Shown here one piece after another: positions 7,040 to 62,289 of a stretch of DNA of 64,000 nucleotides. The notes under the pieces are model-generated. The model worked only from the letters and a program-made list of their open reading frames with translations, was not told where the DNA came from and searched no databases. The stretch's first letter is position 1; each line of letters starts with the position of its first letter. The DNA comes from an uncultured bacterium. GTDB taxonomy: Bacteria; Acidobacteriota; Thermoanaerobaculia; Multivoradales; JAHZIX01. The stretch is taken from assembly GCA_965368975.1 (NCBI GenBank), contig CBDUPA010000002.1, positions 288,001 to 352,000 of the forward strand, in the 5' to 3' direction. Made by a program: the position numbers and the translations under genes.

Positions 7040-7972
7040 ATGCGAAAGAATGACGACAAGCTCGTCCTCGTGGTGCGCAAGACGCGTCTCGACGAGCTGG
7101 TCGCACGCTTCAACACCAAGTCGCAAGCGCGCTTCTACGTCGAGCACCTGGGGGCCGACTTTTCCGACTACCAGCTTGAGGACCAAGTCTACAAGGCAGC
7201 GGTGCGGCAAGTACGGGAAGAGCTGCAACAGCACGGCCGCGTCCACGTGGTGGACCGTGCTTTCTTGCCCAACTTCCTGTTCGGGCCACACGACCTCGTA
7301 ATCACCCTGGGCCAGGACGGCCTGGTCGCCAACGTTCTCAAGTACCTCGAGGGCCAGCCCGTGATTGGCGTCAACCCCGATCCGGCACGCTGGGAAGGCG
7401 TGCTGCTGCCATTTGAGCCCAGCGATCTGAGCCTGGTGGTGCCGGAGGTGATGTCCGACAAGCGATCGCGGCGCGAGGTCTCGATGGCCGAGGCACGTCT
7501 CAACGACGGCCAGACCCTACTCGGCGTCAACGACCTGTTCATCGGCCCCAAGAGCCACAGCTCGGCACGCTACGCCCTGCGCATCGGCGAGCGCGAGGAG
7601 CACCAGAGTTCGAGCGGCATCATTGTCTCGACCGGCCTCGGCTCGACCGGTTGGCTGCGCAGCATCGTCGCCGGAGCCGCCGGCATCGCGTCGCAGTTGT
7701 TGGAGCAGCCGCTCGAGACGCCGGCCGCCCGCTTCGACTGGGAGTCGGACTACCTCTGCTTCTCGGTGCGTGAACCGTGGCCCAGCACCACGACTTCAGC
7801 GAACATCACCTTCGGCCACATCACACGAAACACGCCGCTGCAGATCGTCTCGCAGATGCCCGAGCACGGCGTCATCTTCAGTGATGGCATGGAAAAGGAC
7901 TTCTTGCAGTTCAACTCCGGCGCCAAGGCCGAGATCAGCCTGGCGAAGACCAAGGGTCAGCTGGTCGTCTAG
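7040..7972 (+). CDS. NAD kinase-like (PpnK-type) protein
   Basis: LGQDGLVAN, GVNPDP, VNDLFIGP and SSGIIVSTGLGSTGW motifs. Confidence 0.8.
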   Translation: MRKNDDKLVLVVRKTRLDELVARFNTKSQARFYVEHLGADFSDYQLEDQVYKAAVRQVREELQQHGRVHVVDRAFLPNFLFGPHDLVITLGQDGLVANVLKYLEGQPVIGVNPDPARWEGVLLPFEPSDLSLVVPEVMSDKRSRREVSMAEARLNDGQTLLGVNDLFIGPKSHSSARYALRIGEREEHQSSSGIIVSTGLGSTGWLRSIVAGAAGIASQLLEQPLETPAARFDWESDYLCFSVREPWPSTTTSANITFGHITRNTPLQIVSQMPEHGVIFSDGMEKDFLQFNSGAKAEISLAKTKGQLVV

Positions 7973-47475: not shown

Positions 47476-49499
47476 ATTGGTAGATCCTTACACGTTTCTA
47501 AGCGGTCGCCCGCTCGGGTAGATGTCAAGACCCCCTTTCAAACCGTGCTTGCGGATTTCCCGCACACGGCTTACGGATGGCCTCTCGGGTCGCGGCATTA
47601 CGCAGCCTCCGGGTAGCGGATCGTGCCCATGAGCTTGTAGAGCCCGAGGTTCCAGAAGGACTCACTCGTCCAGCGGCGCGCCTCGCCCAGCTTCAGGTGC
47701 CGCCCTTTGCGCGTAAGGCGCAAGCGGCGCAGTCGTCGCCAGACGTAGGTGTCGACTTGAACGAATTGCTTGGCGGCGTTTCCCGTGCGGAAGTACTGAC
47801 TCCACCCTCGAAGCACGGGGTTGAGACTCGCGATGACATCGCGCAGATCCGCGTGGCATCGTGACCTCGGAGTCAGCTCTTTGATGCGCTGCCGTATACG
47901 CTGCATCGAGCGCTGCGACGGCCAACGGTGGAGAAAGTAGAGCCGACGCCCCGTCTTCTCCCACAATCGACCGCTCAAACGCTTGTGCAGGTGGCAGCCG
48001 AGGAAGTCGAACCCCTCCTTGCCGTCGTAGAGATTCACTCGCCTCGTCTTCTCCGGGTGTAGCTCCAGACCAAGACGTTCCAGGATCACGCGGATCCGCG
48101 CCTCGGCCTGATCGCACTGGGACTTCGTGCGACAGATCACGACGAAGTCGTCTGCGTACCGCACCAGCGTCCCCAAGGGAGCGCTGTGGCGCGTCCACAG
48201 CGTGTCCAGCACATGCAGGTAGATGTTCGACAGCAAGGGTGAAATCACACCACCCTGCGGTGTACCGACCCGCGTCGGCGACACCTTGCCGTCCTCCATC
48301 ACACCAGCTTCGAGCCACTGCCGCAGCAGCTTCAGCATCCGCCGATCCGAGACGCGCCGTGCCACCAGAAGCAACAGCTTCCGGTGGTCGATGCTCCCGA
48401 AGTAGTCCCGGATGTCGGCATCGAGCACGTGATGATGCCCCTTGGCGCCGAGCTTCCTCAGCGTCTCCAGCGCATCCGTCGCACTCCGCTTTGGCCGGAA
48501 ACCATACGAGACGGGCAAGAAATCCGCCTCGAAGATCGCCTCCAACACCAGCTTTGCCGCCATCTGGACCACACGGTCTCGTACCGTCGGGATACCCAGC
48601 GGCCGCTTCCTTCCATCTGCCTTCGGGATGTACCGGCGCAGCACCACCTCAGGCCGATACTTCTTGGCTCGCAGCGAGGAACCGAGCTCTTCCAGGAAGC
48701 GCTCGGTACCGTACTGCTCCACGTCGCCTAGCGTCGCGGCATCGACGCCCGCGGCTCCGCGGTTGGCTCGTACCCGCTTCCACGCCTCCCACAGGATGTC
48801 ATCCCTGTGGATGTGGTTGTACAGGGCGTGGAAACGCCTACCCGGCGACCGCTTGGCCGCCGCCCACAGTCGACGTTGGAGGTGGCGCACTTTCACGCTC
48901 GGCCTACGGCCGACGGGGTCGATAGGTCCGGTCTTGCCGGCCATTCCCTTGCACGTGCCTCCACCCTCGACATGACCAAACCAGGGACCCTTCCCTAAGG
49001 CGGCGTTCTTCTGCACCGCCTTCACCGGTACTACGATCCCCTCGGACTCCCGCTGCGCACGACCCGACTTCGCCTTCGGCCTATACGGGCACGCTGGCCG
49101 CGACAACGGCTGCACAGACGGGTCTCTCGTGTTCCGCGCGTCTCCTTGCACACGTGCTGCGCCCCATACCCCGCCGGCATCCGACGCAGGCTCCGGATCT
49201 GACCCCACGCCGGACATGGCCTTCGCCGTGACATGAGCGGCTCGGCTACCGAATTGTAAATCTGTCGAGGCTGCAGGCTTCACTTCATGTTGCGGCCCGT
49301 GTGCTTGCTCCCCGTCCAGCGGAAATTCTCCGCCTCCGGGCTTGTGACGCCCCGCTCGGGCAAAGGGGTCTCCCCCAAATACCTGGGGCCGGCTACTCGG
49401 CGCTCCGGCGCTTACCGAGGTGGGACTTTCACCCACTGGACACGCGCAGCGCACAGATCTCTCCCCGGAAACCAGAGTTCGATCTGTTTCACGACGCAC
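47476..49499 (-). mobile_element. Group II intron (full length)
   Basis: 5' end GTGCG at 49499. Domain V AAGCCGTGTGCGGGAAATCCGCAAGCACGGTTT at 47572-47540. Domain VI and 3' end ...CTACCAAT at 47476. Internal RT ORF present. Confidence 0.92.
47598..48944 (-). CDS. ltrA: Group II intron reverse transcriptase/maturase, no endonuclease domain
   Basis: RPLGIPTVRDR, SYGFRPKRS, GTPQGGVISPLLSNIYL, RYADD, FDFLG and maturase LNPVLRGW..YF motifs. The frame is open upstream to ATG 49502. Confidence 0.93.
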   Translation of the reverse strand: MAGKTGPIDPVGRRPSVKVRHLQRRLWAAAKRSPGRRFHALYNHIHRDDILWEAWKRVRANRGAAGVDAATLGDVEQYGTERFLEELGSSLRAKKYRPEVVLRRYIPKADGRKRPLGIPTVRDRVVQMAAKLVLEAIFEADFLPVSYGFRPKRSATDALETLRKLGAKGHHHVLDADIRDYFGSIDHRKLLLLVARRVSDRRMLKLLRQWLEAGVMEDGKVSPTRVGTPQGGVISPLLSNIYLHVLDTLWTRHSAPLGTLVRYADDFVVICRTKSQCDQAEARIRVILERLGLELHPEKTRRVNLYDGKEGFDFLGCHLHKRLSGRLWEKTGRRLYFLHRWPSQRSMQRIRQRIKELTPRSRCHADLRDVIASLNPVLRGWSQYFRTGNAAKQFVQVDTYVWRRLRRLRLTRKGRHLKLGEARRWTSESFWNLGLYKLMGTIRYPEAA

Positions 49500-49600
49500 C
49501 ATGGCCTCATTCTAGGTCCGACAACGCGTACTAGTATTGAGCCAGAAGATTCGCTAGCAAGAACATTCCCAGCGAGCCTCAGACTGATTGGGCCAATAGG

Positions 49601-51256: not shown

Positions 51257-51294
51257 AAACGACCCTTAGCTCCTTGGGAGCTTGAGGGTCGTTT
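51257..51294 (+). terminator. Hairpin downstream of cassette B
   Basis: AAACGACCCTTAGCTCC-ttg-GGAGCTTGAGGGTCGTTT. Confidence 0.6.
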
Positions 51295-51464
51295 CCCGTT
51301 TTGGGGTCCCAACCGTCTCGGCTCACTTCAAGAACTTCGGCCACAACCCCTGGTGTAGGATGCCCGCAATGAGAGGCATCGATCCCGGCCCTCTCGAGCG
51401 GCAACCGAACTCTCGACCTCTCCGCTCCAACGCCCACCGACAACCAGACGCAAGGGAGGCACGC

Positions 51465-54400
51465 ATGACGCGTAGCACGTGGACCCTCGGACTCGTTCTC
51501 ATCCTGCTCGCCGCCCTCACGGCGGTACCGGCCGTCGCCTCGAAGACGCAACCGGCACCCGGCACCTCCGCCGGCCTCGACGCCGATCTGCTCGCCGGCA
51601 TGACGGCACGCGCCATTGGCCCGGCGGCGATGAGCGGTCGTATCGGCTCGATCGACGCGCTGGCGAATGACCCGAACGTGATCTACGTGGGCGCCGCCAC
51701 CGGCGGCTTGTGGCGCACGCGCAACGGCGGCGTCACCTGGGAGCCGATCTTCGACGATCAGCCGGTAGCAGCGATCGGAGCAGTGACGCTGGAGCAGGCG
51801 AATCCGGACGTGGTGTGGGTGGGCACCGGCGAGGGCAACACGCGCAACAGCGTGTCCGTGGGCAACGGCGTCTACAAGTCGCTCGACGGCGGCGACACCT
51901 GGACGCACCAAGGCCTCGACCAGACCGAGCGCATCCACCGCATCCGCCTGCATCCCGACAACGCGGACATCGCCTATGTGTGCGCCCTCGGCCAGCTGTG
52001 GGGCGAGAACGAGCAACGCGGCGTGTTCAAGACCACCAACGGCGGCACGACGTGGGCCAAGATCCTGTACGTCGACGAGCGCACCGGCTGCTCCGACCTG
52101 GAAGTGGACCCAGTGAACGGTGACAAGGTGATCGTGGGCATGTGGCAGCACCGCCGCTGGCCGTGGTCCTTCAAGTCAGGTGGCCCGGGCTCCGGGCTCT
52201 ACGTAACCCATGACGGCGGCGCGACCTGGACGCAGCGCACGCAGGACGACGGCCTACCGGAAGGGCACCTCGGCCGTATCGGCCTGGCGATTTCTCACTC
52301 GCAGCCGAACGTGGTCTACGCCATCGTCGAGGCCGAGAAGTCGGCTCTGCTGCGTTCCGACGACGGCGGCAAGACGTTCCGCGCCGTCAACACGAACAAC
52401 AACGTCATCTCGCGGCCCTTCTACTACGCCGACATCCGCGTCGACCCGAAGAACCCGAACCGTGTGTACAACCTGTGGTCGCTGCTTTCGGCCTCGGACG
52501 ATGGCGGCCGCACCTTCGACATCATCGGCTCCTGGAACACGATCCATCCCGACCACCACGAGCTGTGGATCCATCCGCACAACCCGCGCTTGCTGATCAA
52601 CGGCAACGACGGCGGCGTCACGATCTCGCAGGACCACGGCCGCACCTGGCGCTTCATCGGCAACCTGCCCTTGGCGCAGTTCTACCACGTGCGAGCTGAC
52701 AACCAGATCCCTTACAACGTCTACGGCGGCCTGCAGGACAACGGCTCCTGGGTCGGCCCCAACGAGGTGTGGGAGAACGGCGGCATCCGCAACCACCACT
52801 GGCAGGAAGTCAATTTCGGCGATGGCTTCGACACCGTGCCGGACCCGCAGATCCCCAACCAGGGCTACGCCATGGCGCAGACAGGCTACCTCGTGCGCTG
52901 GAACCTGGACACCGGCGAACAAAAAGAAATCCGACCAGCACCGCCGGCGGAGGACGAGAAGCTGCTGCGCTTCAATTGGAATGCCGGCATCGAATTCGAC
53001 CCGCACGACCCGACCGGCGCCACCGTCTACTACGGCAGCCAGTACATCCACAAGTCGACTGACCGCGGAGACACCTGGACGATCATCAGCCCGGACCTGA
53101 CCACCAACAACCCAGAGTGGCAGAAGCAGGCGGAGAGCGGCGGCCTGACGCTGGACGTGACCGGTGCCGAGAACTTCACCTCGATTCTGGCGATCGACCC
53201 CAGCCCGGTGCAGGAAGGCGTGATCTGGGCAGCCACCGACGACGGCCGCCTGCACGTGACGCAGGACGGCGGCGAGACCTGGACCAGCGTCGAGGGCAAC
53301 CTGCCGGGCGTACCGGCCAACACCTGGATCCCGCACGTCAACGCGTCGCCGCACGCCGCCGGCACCGCTTTCGTGGTGCTCGACGACCATCGGCGCTCCA
53401 ACTGGACCCCCTACGTGCTGCGCACCGACGACTTTGGCCAGACCTGGACGTCGCTGGTGAGCGACAACCTGTGGGGCTATGCCCTGGTGATCGAGCAGGA
53501 CCCGGTGGACCCGAACCTGCTGTTCCTGGGCACGGAGTTCGGCCTCTGGATCTCGACCGACGCCGGTAGCGGCTGGCTGCGCTTCGAGCACGGCGTGCCG
53601 ACGGTCAGCGTGATGGACCTGGCGATCCAGGAGACCGAGCACGACCTGGTGATCGGCACCCACGGTCGTGGCTTGTTCGTGCTGGACGACATCCGCCCCC
53701 TGCGCGGACTGGCCGCCGAGCACCAGGCGGGAGAGCTCCGCTTGTTCGAGATCCCCACCGCCTACCAGCACGAAGTCGCCCAGACTGGCTCCTCGCGCTT
53801 CCCGGGCAACATCGAGTTCCGCGGTGAGAACCCCCGCTACGGCGCGCTGCTCACCTTCTCCCTTCACGGCGACGACCTACCGCACCCGGACGAGGCGAAG
53901 GAACGCGAGCGCAAGGCCGCCGAACGCGCTGCCAAGCTGACCGAAGTCGAAGCCGGCGAGAGCACCGAACAAGAACCGGCACGGCGTCGCGGACGGCGCG
54001 CTGGCGCAGGTGGTCCAGGCCCAGGCGGCCCCCCGTGGGCGCGCGGCGACGACGGACCGCAGATCGACATCGAGGTCGCGGACGCCAGTGGTGAGGTCAT
54101 CCGCAGGTTCAAGGCACCCGCCCGCCAGGGTCTCAACCGGACCACCTGGAACCTGGCACGCGACGGCTTCCGTCGGCCAGCGGGGGACTTGCCCTTCTGG
54201 ATCACGGGAGCACCCACGGGACCGGCCGTACCGCCGGGCACCTACACGGTGACCGTGAAGTTCCGCGACCAGGAATCGAGCCAGACGGTCGAGGTGAAAG
54301 CCGATCCGCGCATCGATCCGCCCCAATCGCAAGCGACCTGGGAAGCCCACTACCAGGGCCTGCTCGACGTCGGGGCCCTACAGGAGGTCCTCACCGACGC

Positions 54401-54965
54401 TGTAGAGCGTATCGACGCGACCAAGACGAGCGTCGACAGCCTGCTGGCCCGCGCCGGTACCCTCAACAAGGAAGCTCTCGAGGCAGAAGAGGAGGAAGGC
54501 GGCGAGATAGAAGACGCTGCTTCCGAGACAGCTGACTCAGACACGGGCGACACCGAAGGCGAAGCGGGCAACACCAGCGGCACCGAGGTCGCGGCGACCG
54601 AAGAAGACGAGGCAGCCCGCGGTCCATACGGGGAACTGCTCAAGGCCGGCCGTGAGCTGAACGAGCAGCTCGACGGACTGCGCGAACGCCTGGTCGGTCC
54701 CGAAGAGAGCAAGGGCATCCAGGAGGACACCGACGCGCAAAGCTACCTGGGCGGTGTCCGCGGCTCGATGAGTTCCTCGTGGGATCCGCCGACGGCGGCA
54801 CAGCTGGCCTACCTGGAGCGCGTGCGCCAGCAACTGGCGGCAATCCTGGAAGACCTCAACCGCGTCCACGCCGAGGACGTCGCCGCCTTCCGGACCCAGG
54901 TGCGCGAGTCGCAACTCGACTGGCTGCCCGAGCAAGAACCTCTGACGCTGCCCGAGTCGGAGTAG
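51465..54965 (+). CDS. VPS10/BNR (Asp-box) repeat sortilin-like secreted protein
   Basis: RAIGPAAMSGRI, many S/TxDGGxTW boxes, GGLQDNGSW and GTHGRG motifs; signal peptide. Confidence 0.92.
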   Translation: MTRSTWTLGLVLILLAALTAVPAVASKTQPAPGTSAGLDADLLAGMTARAIGPAAMSGRIGSIDALANDPNVIYVGAATGGLWRTRNGGVTWEPIFDDQPVAAIGAVTLEQANPDVVWVGTGEGNTRNSVSVGNGVYKSLDGGDTWTHQGLDQTERIHRIRLHPDNADIAYVCALGQLWGENEQRGVFKTTNGGTTWAKILYVDERTGCSDLEVDPVNGDKVIVGMWQHRRWPWSFKSGGPGSGLYVTHDGGATWTQRTQDDGLPEGHLGRIGLAISHSQPNVVYAIVEAEKSALLRSDDGGKTFRAVNTNNNVISRPFYYADIRVDPKNPNRVYNLWSLLSASDDGGRTFDIIGSWNTIHPDHHELWIHPHNPRLLINGNDGGVTISQDHGRTWRFIGNLPLAQFYHVRADNQIPYNVYGGLQDNGSWVGPNEVWENGGIRNHHWQEVNFGDGFDTVPDPQIPNQGYAMAQTGYLVRWNLDTGEQKEIRPAPPAEDEKLLRFNWNAGIEFDPHDPTGATVYYGSQYIHKSTDRGDTWTIISPDLTTNNPEWQKQAESGGLTLDVTGAENFTSILAIDPSPVQEGVIWAATDDGRLHVTQDGGETWTSVEGNLPGVPANTWIPHVNASPHAAGTAFVVLDDHRRSNWTPYVLRTDDFGQTWTSLVSDNLWGYALVIEQDPVDPNLLFLGTEFGLWISTDAGSGWLRFEHGVPTVSVMDLAIQETEHDLVIGTHGRGLFVLDDIRPLRGLAAEHQAGELRLFEIPTAYQHEVAQTGSSRFPGNIEFRGENPRYGALLTFSLHGDDLPHPDEAKERERKAAERAAKLTEVEAGESTEQEPARRRGRRAGAGGPGPGGPPWARGDDGPQIDIEVADASGEVIRRFKAPARQGLNRTTWNLARDGFRRPAGDLPFWITGAPTGPAVPPGTYTVTVKFRDQESSQTVEVKADPRIDPPQSQATWEAHYQGLLDVGALQEVLTDAVERIDATKTSVDSLLARAGTLNKEALEAEEEEGGEIEDAASETADSDTGDTEGEAGNTSGTEVAATEEDEAARGPYGELLKAGRELNEQLDGLRERLVGPEESKGIQEDTDAQSYLGGVRGSMSSSWDPPTAAQLAYLERVRQQLAAILEDLNRVHAEDVAAFRTQVRESQLDWLPEQEPLTLPESE

Positions 54966-55749: not shown

Positions 55750-57999
55750 ATGGATCCACCCTCTCCCTCCGTCTTCATCAGCTATAGTCACGACACCGAC
55801 GAGCACAAACAGCGTGTCCTGGCGCTGGCGGATCGGCTGCGCCAGGACGGGATCGACGCGATTCTCGATCGCTACGCGGGGTCCCCGGAGGAAGGCTGGC
55901 CGAGATGGATGTTCGGACAGATCAAGGCTGCCGACTTCGTGCTCGTCGTCTGTACCGAGACGTATTACCAGCGCTTCTGGGGCCTGGCGCTGGACGGGCT
56001 CGGTGTGAACTGGGAAGGCGCCATTCTCACTCACTCCCTCTACGCCGCCCGTAGCTGGAATCCGCGCTTCGTGCCTGTCCTCTTCGACACCGAAGACAAG
56101 TCACACATCCCCGAGATCTTCAGCGTCTCCTACTTCTCAGTCTCCACAGAAGCAGGGTATCTCGACCTCTACCGCCACCTGACAGGTCAACCCGAGACAC
56201 CGCCCCCGCCCATTGGCCCACCACGAGAACTCCCGCCGTCCGACCGCCCTGACCCCCTCTTCGAGAGCGACGAAACCCGCGGCTTCTCCAAAGAGCTACA
56301 GTCCGCGCGACAGGAAAGGAAAGCCCTGTCACTCCGAGGCGAGGACATCACTACCGTCCAGGAACGCATCCTCGACCTGAGACGCAAGCTGCGCGCCGGA
56401 CCACAGCTGCAAGCCGGGGACCTGTTGCTCGACCGCTTCGAGCTGGTGGAGGAGATCGGTCACGGCGGCTTTGCGGTGGTGTGGAAAGCCTGGGACGAGG
56501 AGGACGAGGTAGTTGTCGCGGTCAAGGTGCTGCACGGCCAGTACTGCAAAGACCGCACTCGCCGCCAGCGCTTCTTCAACGGCGCCAGGCGCATGGCGAA
56601 GTTGCACCATCCGCACGTCGTCAAAGTGCTGCACCAGAAGCAGGTCGACGATGGTCATTACTTTTTCGTGATGGAGTACCTGCCCGGTGGTGACTTCCGG
56701 CAAGCCGTCTGCAGCGGTGCTCTCTCGCAAGATGAACGCCTACAGGTCGTGCGTCAGATCGGAGATGCACTGGAATACGCCCATGAAAGACAGGTAATCC
56801 ACCGCGACGTCAAACCCCACAACATCCTGCTGGACACAGATGGCACCCCCAAGCTGACCGATTTCGACCTGGTGCGCGCGCTCGAGTCAACGCAGGGGAC
56901 CAAGACCGGCTTCTTGGGTACACCGCTGTACGCGGCACCGGAGATGATGGAACGCCCACAGGACGCAGGGCCCGCGGCGGATGTCTATGGATTGGGGATG
57001 ACGGCGCTGTTTGCCCTGGCGGAGCGGGAACTGCCGCTGTCCCTGATGCGGGGAGTCGATGCCTTCCTGGCAGACTTGCAAGCACCAGAGCCCATCAAGA
57101 AGGCAGTCCATCGGGCGGTAGCATGGAACGTCCAAGAGCGGTTCAGCTCAGTAGCGGAGTTCTGCAGCGCGTTGGAGCTGCCCCGCAAGCCGACCCGGGT
57201 GGAGCCGCAAGCTGCACGATCAACGCGACCGCGACTAGCCTGCGGGAGTACGGGAGAGATTCTGCCACCGACCCAGGTCCGCGAGCGCCAATACGGAGAA
57301 TTGGGCATCGAGCTGGTGCACGTACCGGCCGGTGTGTATCCGATGGGTGCCAAGGGCATCAAGTACGCCGAACCAGTTCACCAAGTACAACTCAGCGAGT
57401 TCTGGATCGGCAAGTACCCCGTGACCCGCGAGCAGTACGCCGCGTTTCTGAAGGCCCATCCAGATCATGCGAAGCCACTCTTGTGGACCGAGGAGGGCTT
57501 TCAGCAGCCACGTCAACCCGTGGTCGGCGTGAACTGGCACGATGCCAAAGCCTTCTGTGGGTGGATCGGCGCACAGCTCCCCACCGAGGCGCAGTGGGAA
57601 GCCGCGGCGCGCGGCCCAGAGGGTCGGCCGTATCCATGGGGTCCTGCTGAGCCGACGAAGCAACTCGCCTGCTTCGGGCAAGACTGGGAGACGGGAAGTC
57701 CGGAAGCGGTCGATGCGCTACCCGAGGGTCAGGGGCCGTTTGGCACCTGGGCTCAGGCGGGCCACGTCTGGGAATGGTGCGAGGACGGCTGGGATGAGAA
57801 TGCCTACGCCGAGCGCGCGAAACGCATTCTGGAAGATCCCGCCCATGCCGCCGACAAATCTGCGTATCGTGTGCTGCGCGGCGGGTCTTGGGCCCACCAG
57901 GCCAGGAACCTGCGGGCCGCGTCCCGGAACAGGCTCAGGGCCGACTATCGGTACCGGAGCATCGGGTTCCGTGTCTGTGTGTCGTCCTCCGAGCCTTGA
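55750..57999 (+). CDS. SEFIR/TIR - Ser/Thr kinase - FGE-sulfatase (CLec) protein; DGR target 1
   Basis: VFISYSHD...GWPRWM; IGHGGFAVV, VAVK, HRDVKPHN, DFDL; LPTEAQWE, GHVWEW, RVLRGGSW, GFR. Confidence 0.9.
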   Translation: MDPPSPSVFISYSHDTDEHKQRVLALADRLRQDGIDAILDRYAGSPEEGWPRWMFGQIKAADFVLVVCTETYYQRFWGLALDGLGVNWEGAILTHSLYAARSWNPRFVPVLFDTEDKSHIPEIFSVSYFSVSTEAGYLDLYRHLTGQPETPPPPIGPPRELPPSDRPDPLFESDETRGFSKELQSARQERKALSLRGEDITTVQERILDLRRKLRAGPQLQAGDLLLDRFELVEEIGHGGFAVVWKAWDEEDEVVVAVKVLHGQYCKDRTRRQRFFNGARRMAKLHHPHVVKVLHQKQVDDGHYFFVMEYLPGGDFRQAVCSGALSQDERLQVVRQIGDALEYAHERQVIHRDVKPHNILLDTDGTPKLTDFDLVRALESTQGTKTGFLGTPLYAAPEMMERPQDAGPAADVYGLGMTALFALAERELPLSLMRGVDAFLADLQAPEPIKKAVHRAVAWNVQERFSSVAEFCSALELPRKPTRVEPQAARSTRPRLACGSTGEILPPTQVRERQYGELGIELVHVPAGVYPMGAKGIKYAEPVHQVQLSEFWIGKYPVTREQYAAFLKAHPDHAKPLLWTEEGFQQPRQPVVGVNWHDAKAFCGWIGAQLPTEAQWEAAARGPEGRPYPWGPAEPTKQLACFGQDWETGSPEAVDALPEGQGPFGTWAQAGHVWEWCEDGWDENAYAERAKRILEDPAHAADKSAYRVLRGGSWAHQARNLRAASRNRLRADYRYRSIGFRVCVSSSEP
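57867..57999 (+). repeat. DGR variable region VR1
   Basis: 119/133 nt identical to the reverse complement of 58663-58795; differences confined to codon positions 1-2. Confidence 0.88.
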
Positions 58000-58042
58000 T
58001 TCTTGGCCCTTGGGCCTTGTTCCCCTTCCGGTTTCCCCCTCC

Positions 58043-58067
58043 GTGTTGACAGTGACACTGTCAACAC
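58043..58067. other. 25-bp palindrome downstream of VR1
   Basis: GTGTTGACAGTG-a-CACTGTCAACAC. Confidence 0.85.
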
Positions 58068-58094
58068 TCCGGCAGCATTGACAATGTCAACACG

Positions 58095-58340
58095 TCAACA
58101 ACCGAAGCCCAGAACTCCGCGCCACGAAGCCAGCGAACGCTCCAGCGTGGTCAGATCACCGCGAGCGAGCAGAGCCAGGCGCTTGCGGAACCGCTGGGTA
58201 GCCTTCTTGCCAACCTCGATTCCCTGTCGCGAGATTCGGTAGCCCAGGTACGGCTGGGTACCGATGGAGCTGCGGATGTGCCCCTTGCGAACATTCAAGG
58301 CCAGGCGGCGCTGCTGCCACAGCCAGGCCCGGACCTCGCC
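58095..58340 (-). pseudogene. C-terminal remnant of a DGR-type reverse transcriptase
   Basis: EVRAWLWQQRRLALNVRK...PYLGYRI...RFRKRL...SLASWRGVL resembles RT motifs 6/7 and thumb. No YxDD motif and no start codon of its own. Confidence 0.75.
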
Positions 58341-58537
58341 ACCGCCAAACGCGTGGCGCGCTCCTGCCGGGCCTGCGCGGCACAAATGCGCGCCTCGTTC
58401 AAGGGCAGGTCTTCGCGCTTCAGACTCCAGCGTCCATCGACCTTCCGCGCCGGAAGGTCGCCCTGGCGTATGCGGTACCGGAGCTGAAGCTCCGACTTCC
58501 CAAGCAACCGTGCGGCTTCCGACAAGGACAATTCCAT
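58341..58537 (-). pseudogene. Truncated excisionase/MerR-like HTH protein (probable DGR accessory gene N-terminus)
   Basis: MELSLSEAARLLGKSELQLRYRIRQGDLPARKVDGRW; abuts the RT remnant in a different frame. Confidence 0.7.
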
Positions 58538-58662
58538 GTCGACATTGGTAACAAAATTTCCCCGTGCACGTCAAGAACCACGATGCTACAAACCGAACCC
58601 AGCAGAATCTTAGCTTAGGAAGAAATTCTAGGCATTCCGGAACAAGGCTCAAATACCAAGTC

Positions 58663-58795
58663 TCAAAGCTCGGAGGACGACACACAGACACGGAACCCGA
58701 AGTACCGGTTCCGATCGTCGGCCCCGTACCTGTTCCGGTACGCGGCCCGCAGGTGCCAGGCCTGGGAGGCCCAAGACCCGCCGCGCAGCACACGA
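58663..58795 (-). repeat. DGR variable region VR2
   Basis: Paralogue of VR1 with the same mismatch pattern. Confidence 0.88.
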
Positions 58796-61700
58796 ACCGC
58801 AGGATCTCGACTGGTGGAGAGCGGATCTGTTGACAAAGTGTCAACACGTTTCTGGTACGCCTTCTCGTCCCAGGCATCCGCACACCACTCCCAGACGTTG
58901 CCGGCTTGGTCCAGGGTACCGAAGGGCCCAGCCCCCTGGGGATAGGCATCCACCGGCGTGGTCTTACCCACGTGGGCGTTCCAGTCGTCATCGGCAAAAT
59001 TTGCAACTTCAGGTGTTGGCTCGCCCTCACCCCACGGGTATTTTCGACCCTCTGGCCCACGCGCGGCCGCTTCCCACCGCGCCTCGCTCGGGAGTTCCAG
59101 CCCCGCCCACGCGCAGTAGGCCTGTGCCTCGTTCCAGCTCACGCCCACCACCGGTTGATCCGGCTGGTTGAACTGCTTGTCGTCCCAGATTTCCGGCTTC
59201 GGCTGGTCCGGCTTTGCCTCCAGGAACTCCTGGAACTGCGCATTGGTCACCGGGTACTTGCCGATCCAGTAGGGGCTGAGCCGCACTGCGTGGAAAGGCT
59301 TCTCGTCGTCGGTAATGTCATCAGCTCCCATCGGATACTCCCCACCGGGAACGAAGACCAGCACCGAACCGTCCTTCTCATGCACCCGCTCCTGCCCGGC
59401 CCTCGCCTCTTCCCCGCTACGCGCAGGTTCGGCGACCGGCCCCCCTGCAGGATGCGCCTCCTTGCCCAGCAGCTCCGCCGCCAGCCGCCGGACCGCCGCA
59501 GTCGCTTCCGCGTTCTCGGCCAGCCGGCCGACAATCTCGACACCGGATTCCTCGCCCACCCGAGCCTCTCGCCAGCCGCGCAATCCCCGCAGCGGGCGCA
59601 GCGCGTGGTAGCACTCGTCCGAGCTGTCCAGCCCGCGCTGCAGCGCTTCCAGGAACGGTAGCGGCGTGCTGACGTGTGCATCACGCAGGCAGTCATCGAC
59701 CAGAGAAGCGTCCTGCGCCAGCACGCCGGCACGCAAGCAGGCGTCCATCAGCGGCCGGAAGAGGGACGGCGTGCTCAGGCCCAGCGCTAGCAGGATCACC
59801 TCGCGCCACCACTTCTCCCCGAAGTGCTCGGCCAGTTCGTCCAGCCCGCCCGGTTCCCCCACGCGGTTCTGGAAATACAGAGCGCACAGATACTCCTGGA
59901 AGCTCAAGTGCAAGAAACCGTAGTTGCCCTCGCCCACTGCCACCAGAACGCCGCTCTGTTGCCGAATCTCCTCCAGCAAGCTGAGACCTTCTTCGGGATC
60001 GCGGCCCAGTTCGCGCAGAGGCTCGCGCAGCTGCTCGGCCAACTCGACGCCCGGGGCTTCCCGCTCTTCTGCGCGGTGCAGATAGTAAGCCAGCGGCTGC
60101 AGCAGGGTCATGGCTTCCTTGGCCGACAGGTCGATCCGTAGCCCCTTGGCGCCGCGCCAGGTTTCCAGCAGCACCATTACGCACTCTTCGTACAGGTCGA
60201 CGCGACGGCCCGGCAGGCTGCGACGGTCACGGTGGACGAGGCACAGGTTCTGCAGCATCAGCGGATTGGTGGCGAGCTTCCGCAAGCTCTCGGTGCGCGG
60301 ATCGTCGCCTTCGAAGATGTCGGCGCACAGGCGGTCGGCCTTGGCGTCGGCAGCGGCTTCCAGCTCGGCTTCGCCGTCCGTGGTGTCCACATCACCCAGC
60401 GTCGCCACCGCCTCGCCGACTCCTTCCAGGCGCTCGACCACCCGGTACCAATCGCGAATGAAACGCCGCGCCTCTTGCGGCTTCAAGTCCTGGACGTGCA
60501 GCTCCAGGAAGCGACCGCCCAGGCGGGCATCGCCTTGGTAGCCGGCGTAGCGACTGGTGACGACGAAGCGGCTGCGCGGGTACTGGTCCAGAGCCTTGTC
60601 CAGCCAGGCTGAAACGGCGGCACGCTCGCTCGGGTCGGCGACTTCGTCGAGGCCGTCGAGCAGCACCAGCAGGCCGCCCCGGTCACGCAGGTACTGCGCG
60701 AGCTTGCGGCAGCGCTCGGGACTCTCGGGGCCGTCGAGTTGGAAGCCCAGCGCCGCTTCGAGTGCGGCCGCGAAGCCGGCGGTGGGATCGGGCAGACGGC
60801 GCAGCTCGATCAGCACGGGGATGGTTTCCGCCGGCAAGCCGAGCGCCACCGGACCGGCCGGTTCGGTGGCCAGCTGGACGAAGTGCTTGAGCAGGGTCGT
60901 TTTGCCGCTGCCTGGATCGCCGAGCACAACGACGCCCGGTAGCTGGTAGCGCTGGGCGAGTTGCAGGGCTTGGTCGAAGGGAAGATCCCGGCGCTCGTCC
61001 TGTTGTTCCTGCGCCAACTTCCGCAGATCCCTGCGGCTGCGCACCTCACCGTGTTCTGCCTCGAACATGCTGTGCCGCACGTTGGCGCGCAGCGGCACGT
61101 AGACCTTCTCCAGCTCCAGCCCGACGCGCAGCTTGGTGACGAAGCCGGCCAGGCGCAGGTAGGCGTGCTCGGCGCGCAGGCGTTCCAGGTAGCGGGGCAG
61201 GGTTGGCGGGGCTTGTGCGGGAGGCGTCTTCGGCGCGGATGTCACCGGCTGAGCTTCGACTTCCTGAGAGCTGCTGGTTTCCAACTCCTTCAACCAGTTC
61301 AGCTGCAGCGGCCAGACGCCGTCTTCCGCATGCTTGGCCACCGGCCGCCGTACCCAGCCGCCACCGTCCGCATCAAAGCGACGCAGCCAGACCTCTCCTT
61401 GCCCTGCCATCGGCTTCAGACAGACCAGGCTGTAGCCGTTCTCGATCTTGGAGCCCTGATAGCACGCTGCCGCCGAAAAGACGACGTAGTTCCCGCCTTC
61501 CAGCGGCTCGACCCACTTTTTGTGCTCGTGGCCATGAAGCAAAAAACGAAAATCTTGTCGCAAGCCACGGCTGAAGTCGTTCTCTTCCGCCTCGACTAGC
61601 CAGTTCGGTGGATGATGTGCCAGCGCGATGCGGACATCGGCGGAGCGCAGCTCGGGGGCGAGCTTCTGCTGCTGCCAATCGCCCGCCATCCACAGCTGGC

Positions 61701-62289
61701 CCTTTTCGCCGTTGCGATGGCAGGACCAAGCGGAATTGAAACCACCGATGCCGACGCGCAAGCCGTCGAAATCGCGAATCGCCGTGTAGATCAGGTGCTG
61801 GGCGTGGTCAGCTGGCAGCAGGTGTTGATAACCGTGGCGGTTCAGCGCGTCGCGGTATGGCTTCAGCCGGACGGTGACCTGCTGCCAGTCGATACCGGCT
61901 TGCTGGACCATCTCGACGACGTCGGACAGCTCCTTCAATCCCGCTTGCCAGGTCTTGACCATGGTCGAGACCTGAGTGCGGTCGACGTCGTGGTTGCCCG
62001 GCACCAGGAAGACATTGGTCTTCAGCAGGGATGGCTCGAAGGCGGTCCGCACCGCCTCCAGGAACTTGAAGGCCACATCGAACTGGTCACGCAGGTTACG
62101 CCCCTCTTCCGGCCCCAGTTGCCCAAAGGCGAGATCCCCGGTGAAGAAGATCAGGTCCGGGCGCAATCCCTCGTCACGTTGTAAGCGTTGCAGGTCGTCG
62201 ACCAGCTTGCGCGTCACGCGTTCGGCATCCCAACCGTGCTTGGGATTGCAGGCGTGCAGATCAGAAAGGTGTAGCCAAGTCAGAAACAA
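58663..62289 (-). CDS. Metallophosphoesterase - NACHT NTPase - FGE-sulfatase (CLec) protein; DGR target 2
   Basis: HLSDLH, FTGDLA, VPGNHD, AHHPP, LHGHEH; GDPGSGKTTLL, LLDGLDE, VTSR, NPLML, FLHLSFQEY; GNVWEW, RVLRGGSW. Confidence 0.92.
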   Translation of the reverse strand: MFLTWLHLSDLHACNPKHGWDAERVTRKLVDDLQRLQRDEGLRPDLIFFTGDLAFGQLGPEEGRNLRDQFDVAFKFLEAVRTAFEPSLLKTNVFLVPGNHDVDRTQVSTMVKTWQAGLKELSDVVEMVQQAGIDWQQVTVRLKPYRDALNRHGYQHLLPADHAQHLIYTAIRDFDGLRVGIGGFNSAWSCHRNGEKGQLWMAGDWQQQKLAPELRSADVRIALAHHPPNWLVEAEENDFSRGLRQDFRFLLHGHEHKKWVEPLEGGNYVVFSAAACYQGSKIENGYSLVCLKPMAGQGEVWLRRFDADGGGWVRRPVAKHAEDGVWPLQLNWLKELETSSSQEVEAQPVTSAPKTPPAQAPPTLPRYLERLRAEHAYLRLAGFVTKLRVGLELEKVYVPLRANVRHSMFEAEHGEVRSRRDLRKLAQEQQDERRDLPFDQALQLAQRYQLPGVVVLGDPGSGKTTLLKHFVQLATEPAGPVALGLPAETIPVLIELRRLPDPTAGFAAALEAALGFQLDGPESPERCRKLAQYLRDRGGLLVLLDGLDEVADPSERAAVSAWLDKALDQYPRSRFVVTSRYAGYQGDARLGGRFLELHVQDLKPQEARRFIRDWYRVVERLEGVGEAVATLGDVDTTDGEAELEAAADAKADRLCADIFEGDDPRTESLRKLATNPLMLQNLCLVHRDRRSLPGRRVDLYEECVMVLLETWRGAKGLRIDLSAKEAMTLLQPLAYYLHRAEEREAPGVELAEQLREPLRELGRDPEEGLSLLEEIRQQSGVLVAVGEGNYGFLHLSFQEYLCALYFQNRVGEPGGLDELAEHFGEKWWREVILLALGLSTPSLFRPLMDACLRAGVLAQDASLVDDCLRDAHVSTPLPFLEALQRGLDSSDECYHALRPLRGLRGWREARVGEESGVEIVGRLAENAEATAAVRRLAAELLGKEAHPAGGPVAEPARSGEEARAGQERVHEKDGSVLVFVPGGEYPMGADDITDDEKPFHAVRLSPYWIGKYPVTNAQFQEFLEAKPDQPKPEIWDDKQFNQPDQPVVGVSWNEAQAYCAWAGLELPSEARWEAAARGPEGRKYPWGEGEPTPEVANFADDDWNAHVGKTTPVDAYPQGAGPFGTLDQAGNVWEWCADAWDEKAYQKRVDTLSTDPLSTSRDPAVRVLRGGSWASQAWHLRAAYRNRYGADDRNRYFGFRVCVSSSEL

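What the first reader, a model, noticed from the sequence alone, without database searches (positions are those of the whole stretch)
57867..58795. Paired DGR variable regions that allow reconstruction of a missing template repeat
Seen: the last 133 nt of both genes are 119/133 identical, while upstream DNA is much more diverged. Thirteen mismatches fall in ten codons (CAC/TCC, AGG/TGG, AAC/CAC, TCC/TAC, CTC/TAC, AGG/GGG, TAT/GAT, TAC/AAC, AGC/TAC, ATC/TTC). All are at codon positions 1-2 and non-synonymous. Ten have A in one copy (6 in VR1, 4 in VR2), so neither copy is the template. An invariant 3' tract GGGTTCCGTGTCTGTGTGTCGTCCTCCGAG (IMH-like) follows. This is the established DGR adenine-mutagenesis signature. 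Predicted TR core (inference): ...GCC AGG AAC CTG CGG GCC GCG AAC CGG AAC AGG AAC AGG GCC GAC AAT CGG AAC CGG AAC ATC GGG TTC CGT.
Basis: partly seen in the sequence, partly recalled or inferred. Interest (0 to 1): 0.85.

Follow-up and report, generated by a model that had tools for sequence, protein, structure and literature searches.

The report
Dead DGR with two frozen variable regions
Two facing sensor genes carry the mutation scars of a diversity-generating retroelement whose template and enzyme have since been deleted from between them, a known kind of decayed locus.

Summary
The last 133 nt of two convergent genes are 119/133 identical. The genes encode a TIR/SEFIR-kinase-FGE protein (55750-57999, +) and a Metallophos-NACHT-FGE protein (58663-62289, -). 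Thirteen core mismatches sit at codon positions 1-2; ten have A in one copy.

The DGR reading is supported, and the template is missing because it was deleted. On the minus strand between the two VRs lie only the first 66 residues of an HTH_17 accessory protein and the last ~78 residues of a DGR reverse transcriptase. Intact relatives in the same order (an Acidobacteriota MAG) carry VR, HTH protein, Avd, TR, RT and a convergent VR over about 2.5-2.7 kb; this locus has 663 bp. Their TRs have A at 10 of the 13 mismatch sites in both loci and at 12 of 13 in at least one. Both copies here end in the VR-type CGAGC, not the TR-type CGAAC.

The 7.1-Mb assembly holds no TR. A 90-95% identical strain in sludge metagenomes carries 555 more bases exactly at the junction, but is also too short for a full cassette.

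Degenerate DGR loci with such targets are already published. The predicted TR is mostly right; one codon is more likely TAC than AAC.

The parts
55750..57999 (+). Target gene 1, 749 aa: SEFIR/TIR, protein kinase and a C-terminal FGE-sulfatase (C-type-lectin-fold) domain that carries VR1
   Evidence: ORF. Pfam: FGE-sulfatase 7.9e-46, Pkinase 4.6e-44, SEFIR 1.5e-17, TIR_2 2.1e-14. PDB: FGE enzymes 1e-22, and the Treponema DGR variable protein TvpA (2y3c) 1.3e-16.
57860..57994 (+). VR1: a variable region carrying at least 13 A-type mismatches against VR2, ending in the VR-type CGAGC
58044..58092 (.). Cluster of three TGT[CT][GA]ACA octamers (58044, 58059, 58085). The first two form a perfect palindrome. 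The cluster sits between the VR1 stop and the RT-remnant stop.
   Evidence: hairpin -13.7 kcal/mol, z -2.6. The same motif lies 5-84 nt after the RT stop in 6 of the 10 related loci where the stop could be placed.
58095..58343 (-). C-terminal remnant of a DGR reverse transcriptase, about 82 codons plus the stop. The catalytic part is absent.
   Evidence: 36% identity over 78 aa to residues 270-347 of the 347-aa C15 DGR RT, E 5e-9; 55% identity to residues 272-349 of 349 (G135 C57) and 56% to residues 263-337 of 337 (G135 C164).
58341..58342 (.). Deletion junction. A related strain carries 555 extra bases here, with a 2-nt overlap.
   Evidence: X2 record 7 (1279 nt) and X3 record 12 (1133 nt) each hold 555 letters between the pieces that end at 58342 and begin at 58341.
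58295..58537 (-). Truncated HTH_17 (excisionase-type) accessory gene. Residues 1-66 are homologous to the ~190-aa accessory proteins of intact relatives; the last 14 codons are out-of-register sequence.
   Evidence: Pfam HTH_17 1.6e-6. 59% identity over residues 1-66 to the G230 protein and 47% to the G135 C164 protein. 42% to the C15 homologue. The C-terminal domain is not found anywhere in G000.
58625..58652 (-). Sigma-70-like promoter match upstream of the HTH gene (consensus match only)
   Evidence: 1 site found, against 0.1 expected in shuffles.
58668..58802 (-). VR2, the variable region of target gene 2
58828..58846 (.). Second perfect TGTTGACA-N3-TGTCAACA palindrome, inside gene 2 just 5' of VR2. 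Unexplained.
   Evidence: the whole 7.1-Mb genome holds only two such palindromes, both in this locus. Fold.
58663..62289 (-). Target gene 2, 1208 aa: calcineurin-like phosphoesterase, NACHT NTPase and a C-terminal FGE-sulfatase domain that carries VR2
   Evidence: ORF. Pfam: FGE-sulfatase 1.3e-54, NACHT 1.1e-14, Metallophos 7.4e-11.

Best explanation
This is a decayed diversity-generating retroelement. Two convergent genes encode intracellular sensor or conflict proteins: a TIR/SEFIR-kinase and a metallophosphatase-NACHT NTPase. Each ends in an FGE-type C-type-lectin ligand-binding domain. Both domains were rewritten from one template repeat by adenine-mutagenic retrohoming. The cassette that sat between the genes was, on the minus strand, HTH_17 accessory protein, Avd, TR and RT. 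It has lost about 1.9-2.0 kb by deletion, in at least two steps. What remains is the first 66 codons of the HTH gene fused out of frame to the last ~80 codons of the RT, plus the palindromic motifs that flank such cassettes. With no TR and no RT catalytic domain, the two VRs are frozen at the last variants written. Shown here: the mismatch pattern, the remnants, the absence of a TR from the assembly, the intact homologous architecture, and the junction. Inferred: that the proteins still function with fixed specificities, the order of the deletions, and the sensor role.
For: The VR pair and its A-type pattern are. Homologous TRs carry A at the mismatch sites: 10 of 13 in both TRs and 12 of 13 in at least one, against 13/112 and 11/112 at identical sites. 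Both copies end CGAGC as VRs do, whereas three TRs (C15, G135 C57, G135 C164) end CGAAC. RT remnant. HTH remnant. Intact relatives have the order VR, HTH, bAvd-like, TR, RT, convergent VR, with stop-to-stop distances of 2666 and 2546 bp against 663 bp here. No third copy exists in the 7,125,974-base assembly, which is 99.3% complete by markers. The VR queries hit only each other; the next hits are at most 79 nt at about 71%. Of the 5 RVT_1 genes in the genome, 2 are 637-663-aa open frames that I read by eye as group II intron type. The other 3 are DGR type, and their TRs do not match these VRs. Junction: contigs of a 90-95% identical strain in two runs hold 555 more bases exactly between 58342 and 58341. 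The 30 loose letters on either side, translated by eye, continue the RT frame (..DDRATLRRW..) and the HTH frame (..EILQPQEGRG..) as the homologues do (compared). That strain's span from VR tail to VR tail is 1279 nt, also too short for a full cassette. Within 57867-57991 none of the 112 non-variable sites differs between the copies, as expected if both were written from one template.
Against: The assembly is a draft of 59 contigs whose smallest contig is 2.7 kb. A short TR-RT contig or a plasmid could be missing. No reads of the source sample were available, so neither polymorphism at the A sites nor a subpopulation with an intact cassette could be tested; Dore et al. 2024 found such variants with long reads (PMC10907252, passages read). 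The complete absence of non-A differences between the two VRs would also fit very recent or continuing homing. Whether the related strain's 555 bases hold a TR cannot be read directly. I infer they do not, from the space available and from the contig running through without breaking.
Confidence: 0.85

Rival explanations
1. The DGR is still active. A matching TR and RT exist elsewhere (an unassembled contig, a plasmid, or a subpopulation with an intact cassette) and diversify both VRs in trans or in some cells.
For: Trans-diversified and structurally heterogeneous degenerate loci are reported in Thiohalocapsa (PMC10907252, passages). The genome holds three other DGR-type RTs. No non-A difference has accumulated between the VRs. 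The assembly is a draft.
Against: No TR-like third copy is in 7.1 Mb. The TRs of the other DGRs do not match: C15 and C16 give no hit with the VR queries. The nearest RT in the genome is only 36% identical to the remnant. A sister strain also has a truncated cassette. In relative G038 (98% complete) the equivalent VR pair likewise has only two copies in the genome.
Confidence: 0.09
2. The deletion is an assembly artefact. The assembler jumped across repeats and left out the TR-RT segment.
For: DGR repeats often break or mis-join short-read assemblies. The locus is flanked by a 164-nt inverted repeat.
Against: The junction at 58341/58342 lies in unique sequence, inside the HTH and RT reading frames and not inside a VR/TR repeat. 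Independent metagenome contigs of a related strain run collinearly through the same remnants and differ only by 555 bases there. Comparable truncations occur in G230, G010 and G038.
Confidence: 0.03
3. This is not a DGR product. Gene conversion homogenised the paralogous 3' ends, and diversifying selection then acted on ligand-contact codons.
For: Inverted paralogous ends can undergo conversion. All differences are non-synonymous.
Against: Selection would not restrict changes to sites where one copy has A and where homologous TRs have A. DGR core remnants lie between the copies. The tails are VR type.
Confidence: 0.02

Closest known systems
Degenerate or incomplete DGR loci with STAND/NACHT, TIR, kinase and metallophosphatase targets in multicellular bacteria (Dore et al. 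2024, PNAS, PMC10907252; abstract, section 5 and passages read)
   Same: C-terminal CLec/FGE variable domains fused to NACHT, TIR, Pkinase and Metallo (PF00149) modules. Several DGR loci per genome. Loci where the RT, TR or accessory gene is missing or pseudogenised. Mobile elements degrade the redundant parts; here RAYT/REP insertions occur at the orthologous locus of G010 and G038.
   Different: This locus is in an acidobacterial lineage. Its VRs match no TR in the genome, so trans service is not available. The deletion junction and a longer intermediate form in a sister strain can be pinpointed. The cassette carries an extra HTH_17 protein.
Canonical avd-TR-RT DGR cassettes with one or more targets (Wu et al. 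2018, NAR, PMC5758913; abstract and passages read)
   Same: The intact relatives have Avd (bAvd 4.3e-6; NCBIfam DivGenRetAVD 1.5e-9, below the cut-off), a TR upstream of the RT, and FGE-sulfatase-type targets.
   Different: Two convergent targets bracket the cassette. A ~190-aa HTH_17 protein precedes avd. The paper's text names four accessory classes (Avd, HRDC, MSL, CH1), and the terms HTH and helix-turn-helix do not occur in it. Its supplements were not seen.
TvpA, the Treponema denticola DGR variable protein (PDB 2y3c)
   Same: The FGE-type C-type-lectin fold matches the VR-bearing domain of gene 1 by sequence (E 1.3e-16).
   Different: TvpA is a surface lipoprotein (recalled, not from a call). 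The proteins here have cytoplasmic signalling and NTPase modules, and no signal peptide was looked for.

Membership tests
Functional diversity-generating retroelement | A DGR-clade reverse transcriptase with a catalytic domain, in the locus or in the genome, that serves this repeat | tested here: not met
   Only the last ~78 residues remain, equivalent to residues 272-349 of 349. Pfam finds nothing in the 321-aa frame that holds the remnant. The other DGR RTs in the genome belong to other TRs.
Functional diversity-generating retroelement | A template repeat that matches the VR at all non-adenine sites | tested here: not met
   blastn with word size 7 against all 59 contigs finds only the two VRs. 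There were 0 exact hits for a 26-mer of the A-free tail in JGI metagenome contigs.
Functional diversity-generating retroelement | An accessory gene (Avd or equivalent) | tested here: not met
   There is no Avd between the VRs (frames). The HTH accessory gene is truncated at residue 66. Its C-terminal domain has no match in G000.
DGR-derived variable region (a past product of mutagenic retrohoming) | Substitutions confined to template adenines, mostly at codon positions 1-2 of AAC-type codons | tested here: met
   Tested indirectly, since the locus's own TR is gone. All 13 core mismatches are at codon positions 1-2 and 10 have A in one copy. Homologous TRs have A at 10/13 sites (both) and 12/13 (either), against about 11% at the other sites.
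DGR-derived variable region (a past product of mutagenic retrohoming) | A VR-type 3' end distinct from the TR end (IMH versus IMH*) | tested here: met
   Both copies end CCGAGC. In C15, G135 C57 and G135 C164 the VRs end CGAGC and the TRs end CGAAC. That this position is the IMH discriminator is inferred from these three loci, not shown by experiment.
DGR-derived variable region (a past product of mutagenic retrohoming) | The VR lies at the C-terminus of a C-type-lectin/FGE-fold domain | tested here: met
   PF03781 at residues 521-742 of 749 and 977-1201 of 1208. TvpA 2y3c, E 1.3e-16.
Degenerate DGR locus in the sense of Dore et al. 2024 | VR-bearing targets next to missing or pseudogenised RT, TR or accessory genes | tested here: met
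   the definition is read.
STAND/NLR-like bacterial conflict or sensor proteins | An NTPase (NACHT) or kinase core with an N-terminal effector-type domain and a C-terminal sensor domain | tested here: met
   The domain order comes from Pfam only. No functional test is possible with these tools.

The most novel reading that the evidence does not exclude
This acidobacterial DGR clade uses a fifth kind of accessory protein, in addition to Avd: an excisionase-type HTH_17 domain joined to a ~115-aa helical domain of no known family. The rare TGT[CT][GA]ACA palindromes clustered just after the RT stop and near the HTH start would be its binding sites. They would mark or regulate the cassette, or the VR-proximal target DNA, and so add sequence-specific DNA recognition to retrohoming. 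The decayed locus in this window still keeps the HTH domain and all the motif copies.
Probability: 0.25. Interest if true: 0.55.

Novelty: new member of a known kind. Interest (0 to 1): 0.35.

Why it matters
The locus is a clean natural example of the end of a DGR's life. Two sensor proteins keep the last variants written, the deletion junction can be placed to the base, and a sister strain shows a longer intermediate form. Related genomes of the same order show the same loss repeatedly (G038, G230, probably G010), next to intact versions (G135, G100, G168). This lineage could therefore be used to ask why diversification is switched off and what happens to the targets afterwards. It also extends the association of DGRs with NACHT, TIR and kinase conflict-type proteins to Acidobacteriota, and it points to an unlisted HTH accessory protein. 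It does not reveal a new mechanism.

Tried and rejected
1. Exact scan of JGI metagenome contigs with a 26-mer of the A-free VR tail: 0 matches.

2. Protein-guided scan of the same collection with gene 1: 93 relatives, the best 47% identical, so no near relative that could supply the lost TR.

3. VR DNA against 41 related genomes: 5 genomes with a match including G000; the best foreign match is 73%.

4. Sequencing runs: only 5 runs, with small word shares (0.07-0.10), all kept as contigs. When laid they gave the junction, but table 3 was cut at 40 of 157 places. The relative's letters at the VR A sites could therefore not be read, and no raw reads were available to look for polymorphism. Run X5 gave only short pieces and is not used.

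I used a single RT protein instead, which found only 6 loci.

6. Profile-profile comparison of the accessory protein's C-terminal domain with Avd: probability 0.4%, no relation shown. The profiles had only 3 rows each, so the result is inconclusive.

7. Rfam on 57500-59100: no match at E up to 1.

8. Terminator scan: the only hit is the 58828 palindrome, at the chance level.

9. Earlier notes of this scan: none for this place.

10. Idea considered and dropped: that the C15 or C9 DGR serves these VRs in trans. Their TR and VRs give no hit with the VR queries.

11. No structure prediction or complex prediction was run, because neither would change the verdict.
Full report
**Observation**

The window lies at G000:C2:288001-352000. 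Two convergent ORFs end 663 bp apart: 55750-57999 (+, 749 aa) and 58663-62289 (-, 1208 aa).

Their last 133 nt are 119/133 identical.
- Thirteen mismatches lie in ten codons between 57895 and 57961, all at codon position 1 or 2.
- Six mismatches have A in VR1 and four have A in VR2.
- Three have no A in either copy; each lies in a codon that also has an A-type mismatch or an A kept in both copies.
- The 14th mismatch (57995) is in the last codon.

The repeat finder reports the pair as an inverted repeat, 57860-58023 / 58639-58802, at 87%. The next arms upstream are 72%. The alignment shows identity rising sharply near 57860. With 10.4% A in the copies, the probability that 10 or more of 13 mismatches involve an A is 1.4e-5. 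The probability that all 13 fall at codon positions 1-2 is 0.005.

**The genes**

- Gene 1 has SEFIR/TIR, protein kinase and FGE-sulfatase domains.
- Gene 2 has Metallophos, NACHT and FGE-sulfatase domains.
- The VR-bearing domain of gene 1 matches formylglycine-generating enzymes and the Treponema DGR variable protein TvpA (2y3c, E 1.3e-16) among solved structures.

**What lies between the VRs**

On the minus strand the 663 bp hold two remnants.

1. An 80-codon ORF (58537 to 58295) with an HTH_17 domain.
2. In another frame, ending at the stop 58097-58095, a stretch that aligns with the C-terminus of DGR reverse transcriptases.
   - 36% identity over 78 aa to residues 270-347 of the 347-aa RT on contig C15 of the same genome (E 5e-9).
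   - 55% to residues 272-349 of 349 and 56% to residues 263-337 of 337 of two RTs in genome G135.

The HTH ORF is 42% identical to an ORF in the same position of the C15 DGR. It is 59% identical over residues 1-66 to the ~190-aa protein of G230, and the homology stops at residue 66.

**The genome's other retroelements**

Five RVT_1 matches exist in G000.
- Two are open frames of 637-663 aa. I read them as group II intron type from their translations. One lies in this window near 47598-49511.
- Three are DGR type.
  - C16 has Avd and a TR at 92586-92716 with two VRs.
  - C15 has a TR at 7183-7341. Its co-oriented VR differs from it at 11 TR adenines (7 A>T, 4 A>G). The other 16 differences counted by the script lie in the non-homologous flanks of the 176-nt slices.
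  - C9 is a paralogue of C15 in which the TR segment and the RT start are missing.

None of these TRs matches VR1 or VR2. In a word-size-7 blastn of the VR ends against all 59 contigs, only the two VRs themselves score. The next hits are at most 79 nt at about 71%.

**Intact relatives**

The RT remnant was used to search 251 genomes of the same order. It matched in 14, counting G000, with open frames from 81 to 509 aa.

G135 is titled 'MAG: Acidobacteriota bacterium' in its public record. It holds two complete loci.
- On C164: a Metallophos-NACHT-FGE gene with a VR, facing RT (337 aa), TR (4820-4954), bAvd-like gene, HTH_17 protein (191 aa), then the VR of a second NACHT-FGE gene.
- On C57: the same order of parts.

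Stop-to-stop distances there are 2546 and 2666 bp, against 663 bp here. About 1.9-2.0 kb is therefore missing: the C-terminal two thirds of the HTH protein, Avd, the TR, and RT residues 1 to about 270.

The two G135 TRs align with VR1 and VR2 without gaps over the core.
- At the 13 core mismatch sites, TR-a has A at 10 and TR-b at 12. Both have A at 10, and at least one has A at 12.
- At the 112 sites where VR1 equals VR2 they have A at 13 and 11.
- The exception is 57961 (ATC/TTC), where the TRs read G and C.
- The two AGG-type codons have A in one TR only.
- In C15 and in both G135 loci the TR ends CGAAC and the VRs end CGAGC. Both copies here end CGAGC, so both are VRs.

**The junction**

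Five public runs hold small shares of the words of this stretch. Four were laid. Three sludge-metagenome runs of one study carry a strain that is 90-95% identical.
- Gene 1 piece: 67 other letters and 9 gaps in 848 nt.
- Central pieces: 18 other letters in 373 nt, and 12 in 237 nt.
- Gene 2 pieces: 23 other letters in 256 nt, and 48 in 471 nt.

X2 record 7 (1279 nt) and X3 record 12 (1133 nt) run from the VR1 tail through the RT remnant to 58342. They then hold 555 letters absent here, and resume at 58341 through the HTH start. Record 7 continues to the inverted VR tail.

The 30 loose letters on each side, translated by eye, continue both frames.
- The RT frame continues (..DDRATLRRW, then R-G-EVRAW..), which parallels ..LERWRKRIAEW.. 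of the C15 RT.
- The HTH frame continues (..RLAV-EILQPQEGRG..), which parallels ..RLAMEVLQPREEQQG.. of G230.

So 58341/58342 is a true deletion endpoint with a 2-nt overlap. The sister strain's 1279-nt span is itself about 1.3 kb short of a full cassette. I infer at least two deletion steps, with the TR already gone in the longer form. That last point is not directly readable. Table 3 was cut, so the relative's letters at the A sites are unknown.

**Recurrence**

- G038 has the orthologous pair: a NACHT-FGE gene and an 843-aa gene. Its VRs are 87.5% identical with A-type differences. An RT fragment and a RAYT-type transposase with REP-like repeats lie between them. Its genome, 98% complete, holds only those two copies.
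- G010 is similar: a TIR-Pkinase-FGE gene of 837 aa, with a third copy on another contig that was not resolved.
- G230 keeps a full HTH protein running straight into an 81-aa RT stub beside a NACHT-FGE VR. Its only other copy is a VR-type end of a TIR-starting frame on another contig, with a 1-nt indel.

Loss of the DGR core with retention of the targets is thus repeated in this order. Because within-genome VR pairs are more alike than VRs across genomes (88% against 68-73%), homing must have continued after the lineages split. The losses are therefore independent. This is inference.

**Side observation**

The octamer TGT[CT][GA]ACA occurs 256 times in 7.1 Mb, or 0.036 per kb. Six copies fall in this locus:
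- 58044, 58059 and 58085, just after the RT stop;
- 58537, on the HTH start codon;
- 58828 and 58839, inside gene 2, 5' of VR2.

The genome's only two perfect TGTTGACA-N(0-8)-TGTCAACA palindromes are both here. The motif lies 5-84 nt after the RT stop in 6 of the 10 related loci where my script could place the stop. Four loci had none. In the 8 loci where the stop was not placed, one motif was seen.

The C-terminal domain of the HTH protein was found in 9 of 251 genomes, with 13 matches.
- Nine matches lie 0-1.9 kb upstream of, and co-oriented with, an RT hit.
- One more lies on a G135 contig whose RT was seen.
- Three are not next to a found RT.
- G000 has no match.

Pfam and NCBIfam name only the excisionase-type HTH. 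A shallow profile comparison with Avd showed no relation. I therefore regard the HTH protein as a regular part of this clade's cassette. That the palindromes are its sites is a hypothesis.

**Literature**

- Dore et al. 2024 (PMC10907252; abstract, section 5 and passages) describe nine DGR loci in one genome. The targets carry CLec with NACHT, TIR, Pkinase and Metallo domains. The paper reports 'degenerate' loci that lack the RT, TR or accessory gene, trans service for some, and intact structural variants in subpopulations for others.
- Wu et al. 2018 (PMC5758913; abstract and passages) list Avd, HRDC, MSL and CH1 as accessory classes. The terms HTH and helix-turn-helix do not occur in the main text. 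Supplements were not seen.
- Two full-text searches, and the passages of the myRT paper that hold those terms, showed no description of an HTH_17 DGR accessory. Dore et al. mention a helix-turn-helix gene at one locus.

**Verdict**

The TR is missing because the cassette between the two VRs was deleted. The kind of locus is already known, so novelty is modest. The unlisted HTH accessory protein and its palindromes are the part most worth following up.

Noticed in passing
window 58044-58092, 58537-58544, 58828-58846: Rare TGT[CT][GA]ACA octamers (0.036 per kb genome-wide) cluster after the RT stop, on the HTH start codon and just 5' of VR2. The only two perfect TGTTGACA-N-TGTCAACA palindromes of the genome are both here. 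The same motif follows the RT stop in 6 of 10 related loci. The copy inside gene 2 is unexplained.
   Followed up: partly
L034 10683-11258 (-), L035 5331-5906 (-), L036 7831-8400 (+): Intact relatives carry a ~190-aa protein upstream of avd: an excisionase-type HTH_17 domain plus a helical C-terminal domain of no known family. Its C-terminal domain lies next to a DGR RT in 10 of 13 matches in the order. It is not among the four accessory classes named in the text of Wu et al. 2018.
   Followed up: partly
G000 C9:138700-141000 and C15:5500-8300 (L004, L005): C9 is an 84-88% identical paralogue of the C15 DGR in which the TR segment and the RT start are missing. The C15 TR fits only one of its two VRs. 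The second C15 VR and both C9 VRs share a form that is 12 nt shorter and matches no TR in the genome. This may be a second set of orphan VRs in the same genome.
   Followed up: partly
window about 47598-49511 (-); G000 C45:13484-15475: Two nearly identical open frames of 637-663 aa with an RVT_1 domain (E 5.7e-37 and 1.6e-38). By eye they have a maturase-like C-terminus, so they are probably copies of a group II intron.
   Followed up: no
L013 8230-9556; L014 8211-9446: At the orthologous locus of G010 and G038 a Y1/RAYT-type transposase gene and REP-like repeats occupy the place of the HTH, Avd and TR. A REP-like sequence has extended the end of the kinase-type target (..EDSHGLKPE..). The transposase was identified by eye only.
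   Followed up: no
window 57860-58802 compared with L013, L014, L035: The RT remnant here is co-oriented with the Metallophos-NACHT gene, whereas in G010 and G038 it is co-oriented with the kinase-type gene. In the sludge strain the tail on the VR2 side is 54/54 identical to this genome's VR1 tail. Recombination between the inverted VRs may flip the cassette.
   Followed up: no
L124 4335-4510 (G230 C20): The only other copy of the G230 VR is a VR-type end of a TIR-starting frame. It has a 1-nt indel relative to its partner, so that target may be frameshifted.
   Followed up: no
window 51282-54965 (+): A 1227-aa ORF with Sortilin-Vps10 and BNR/Asp-box repeats. These explain direct-repeat family D1 (51871-53306).
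   Followed up: no
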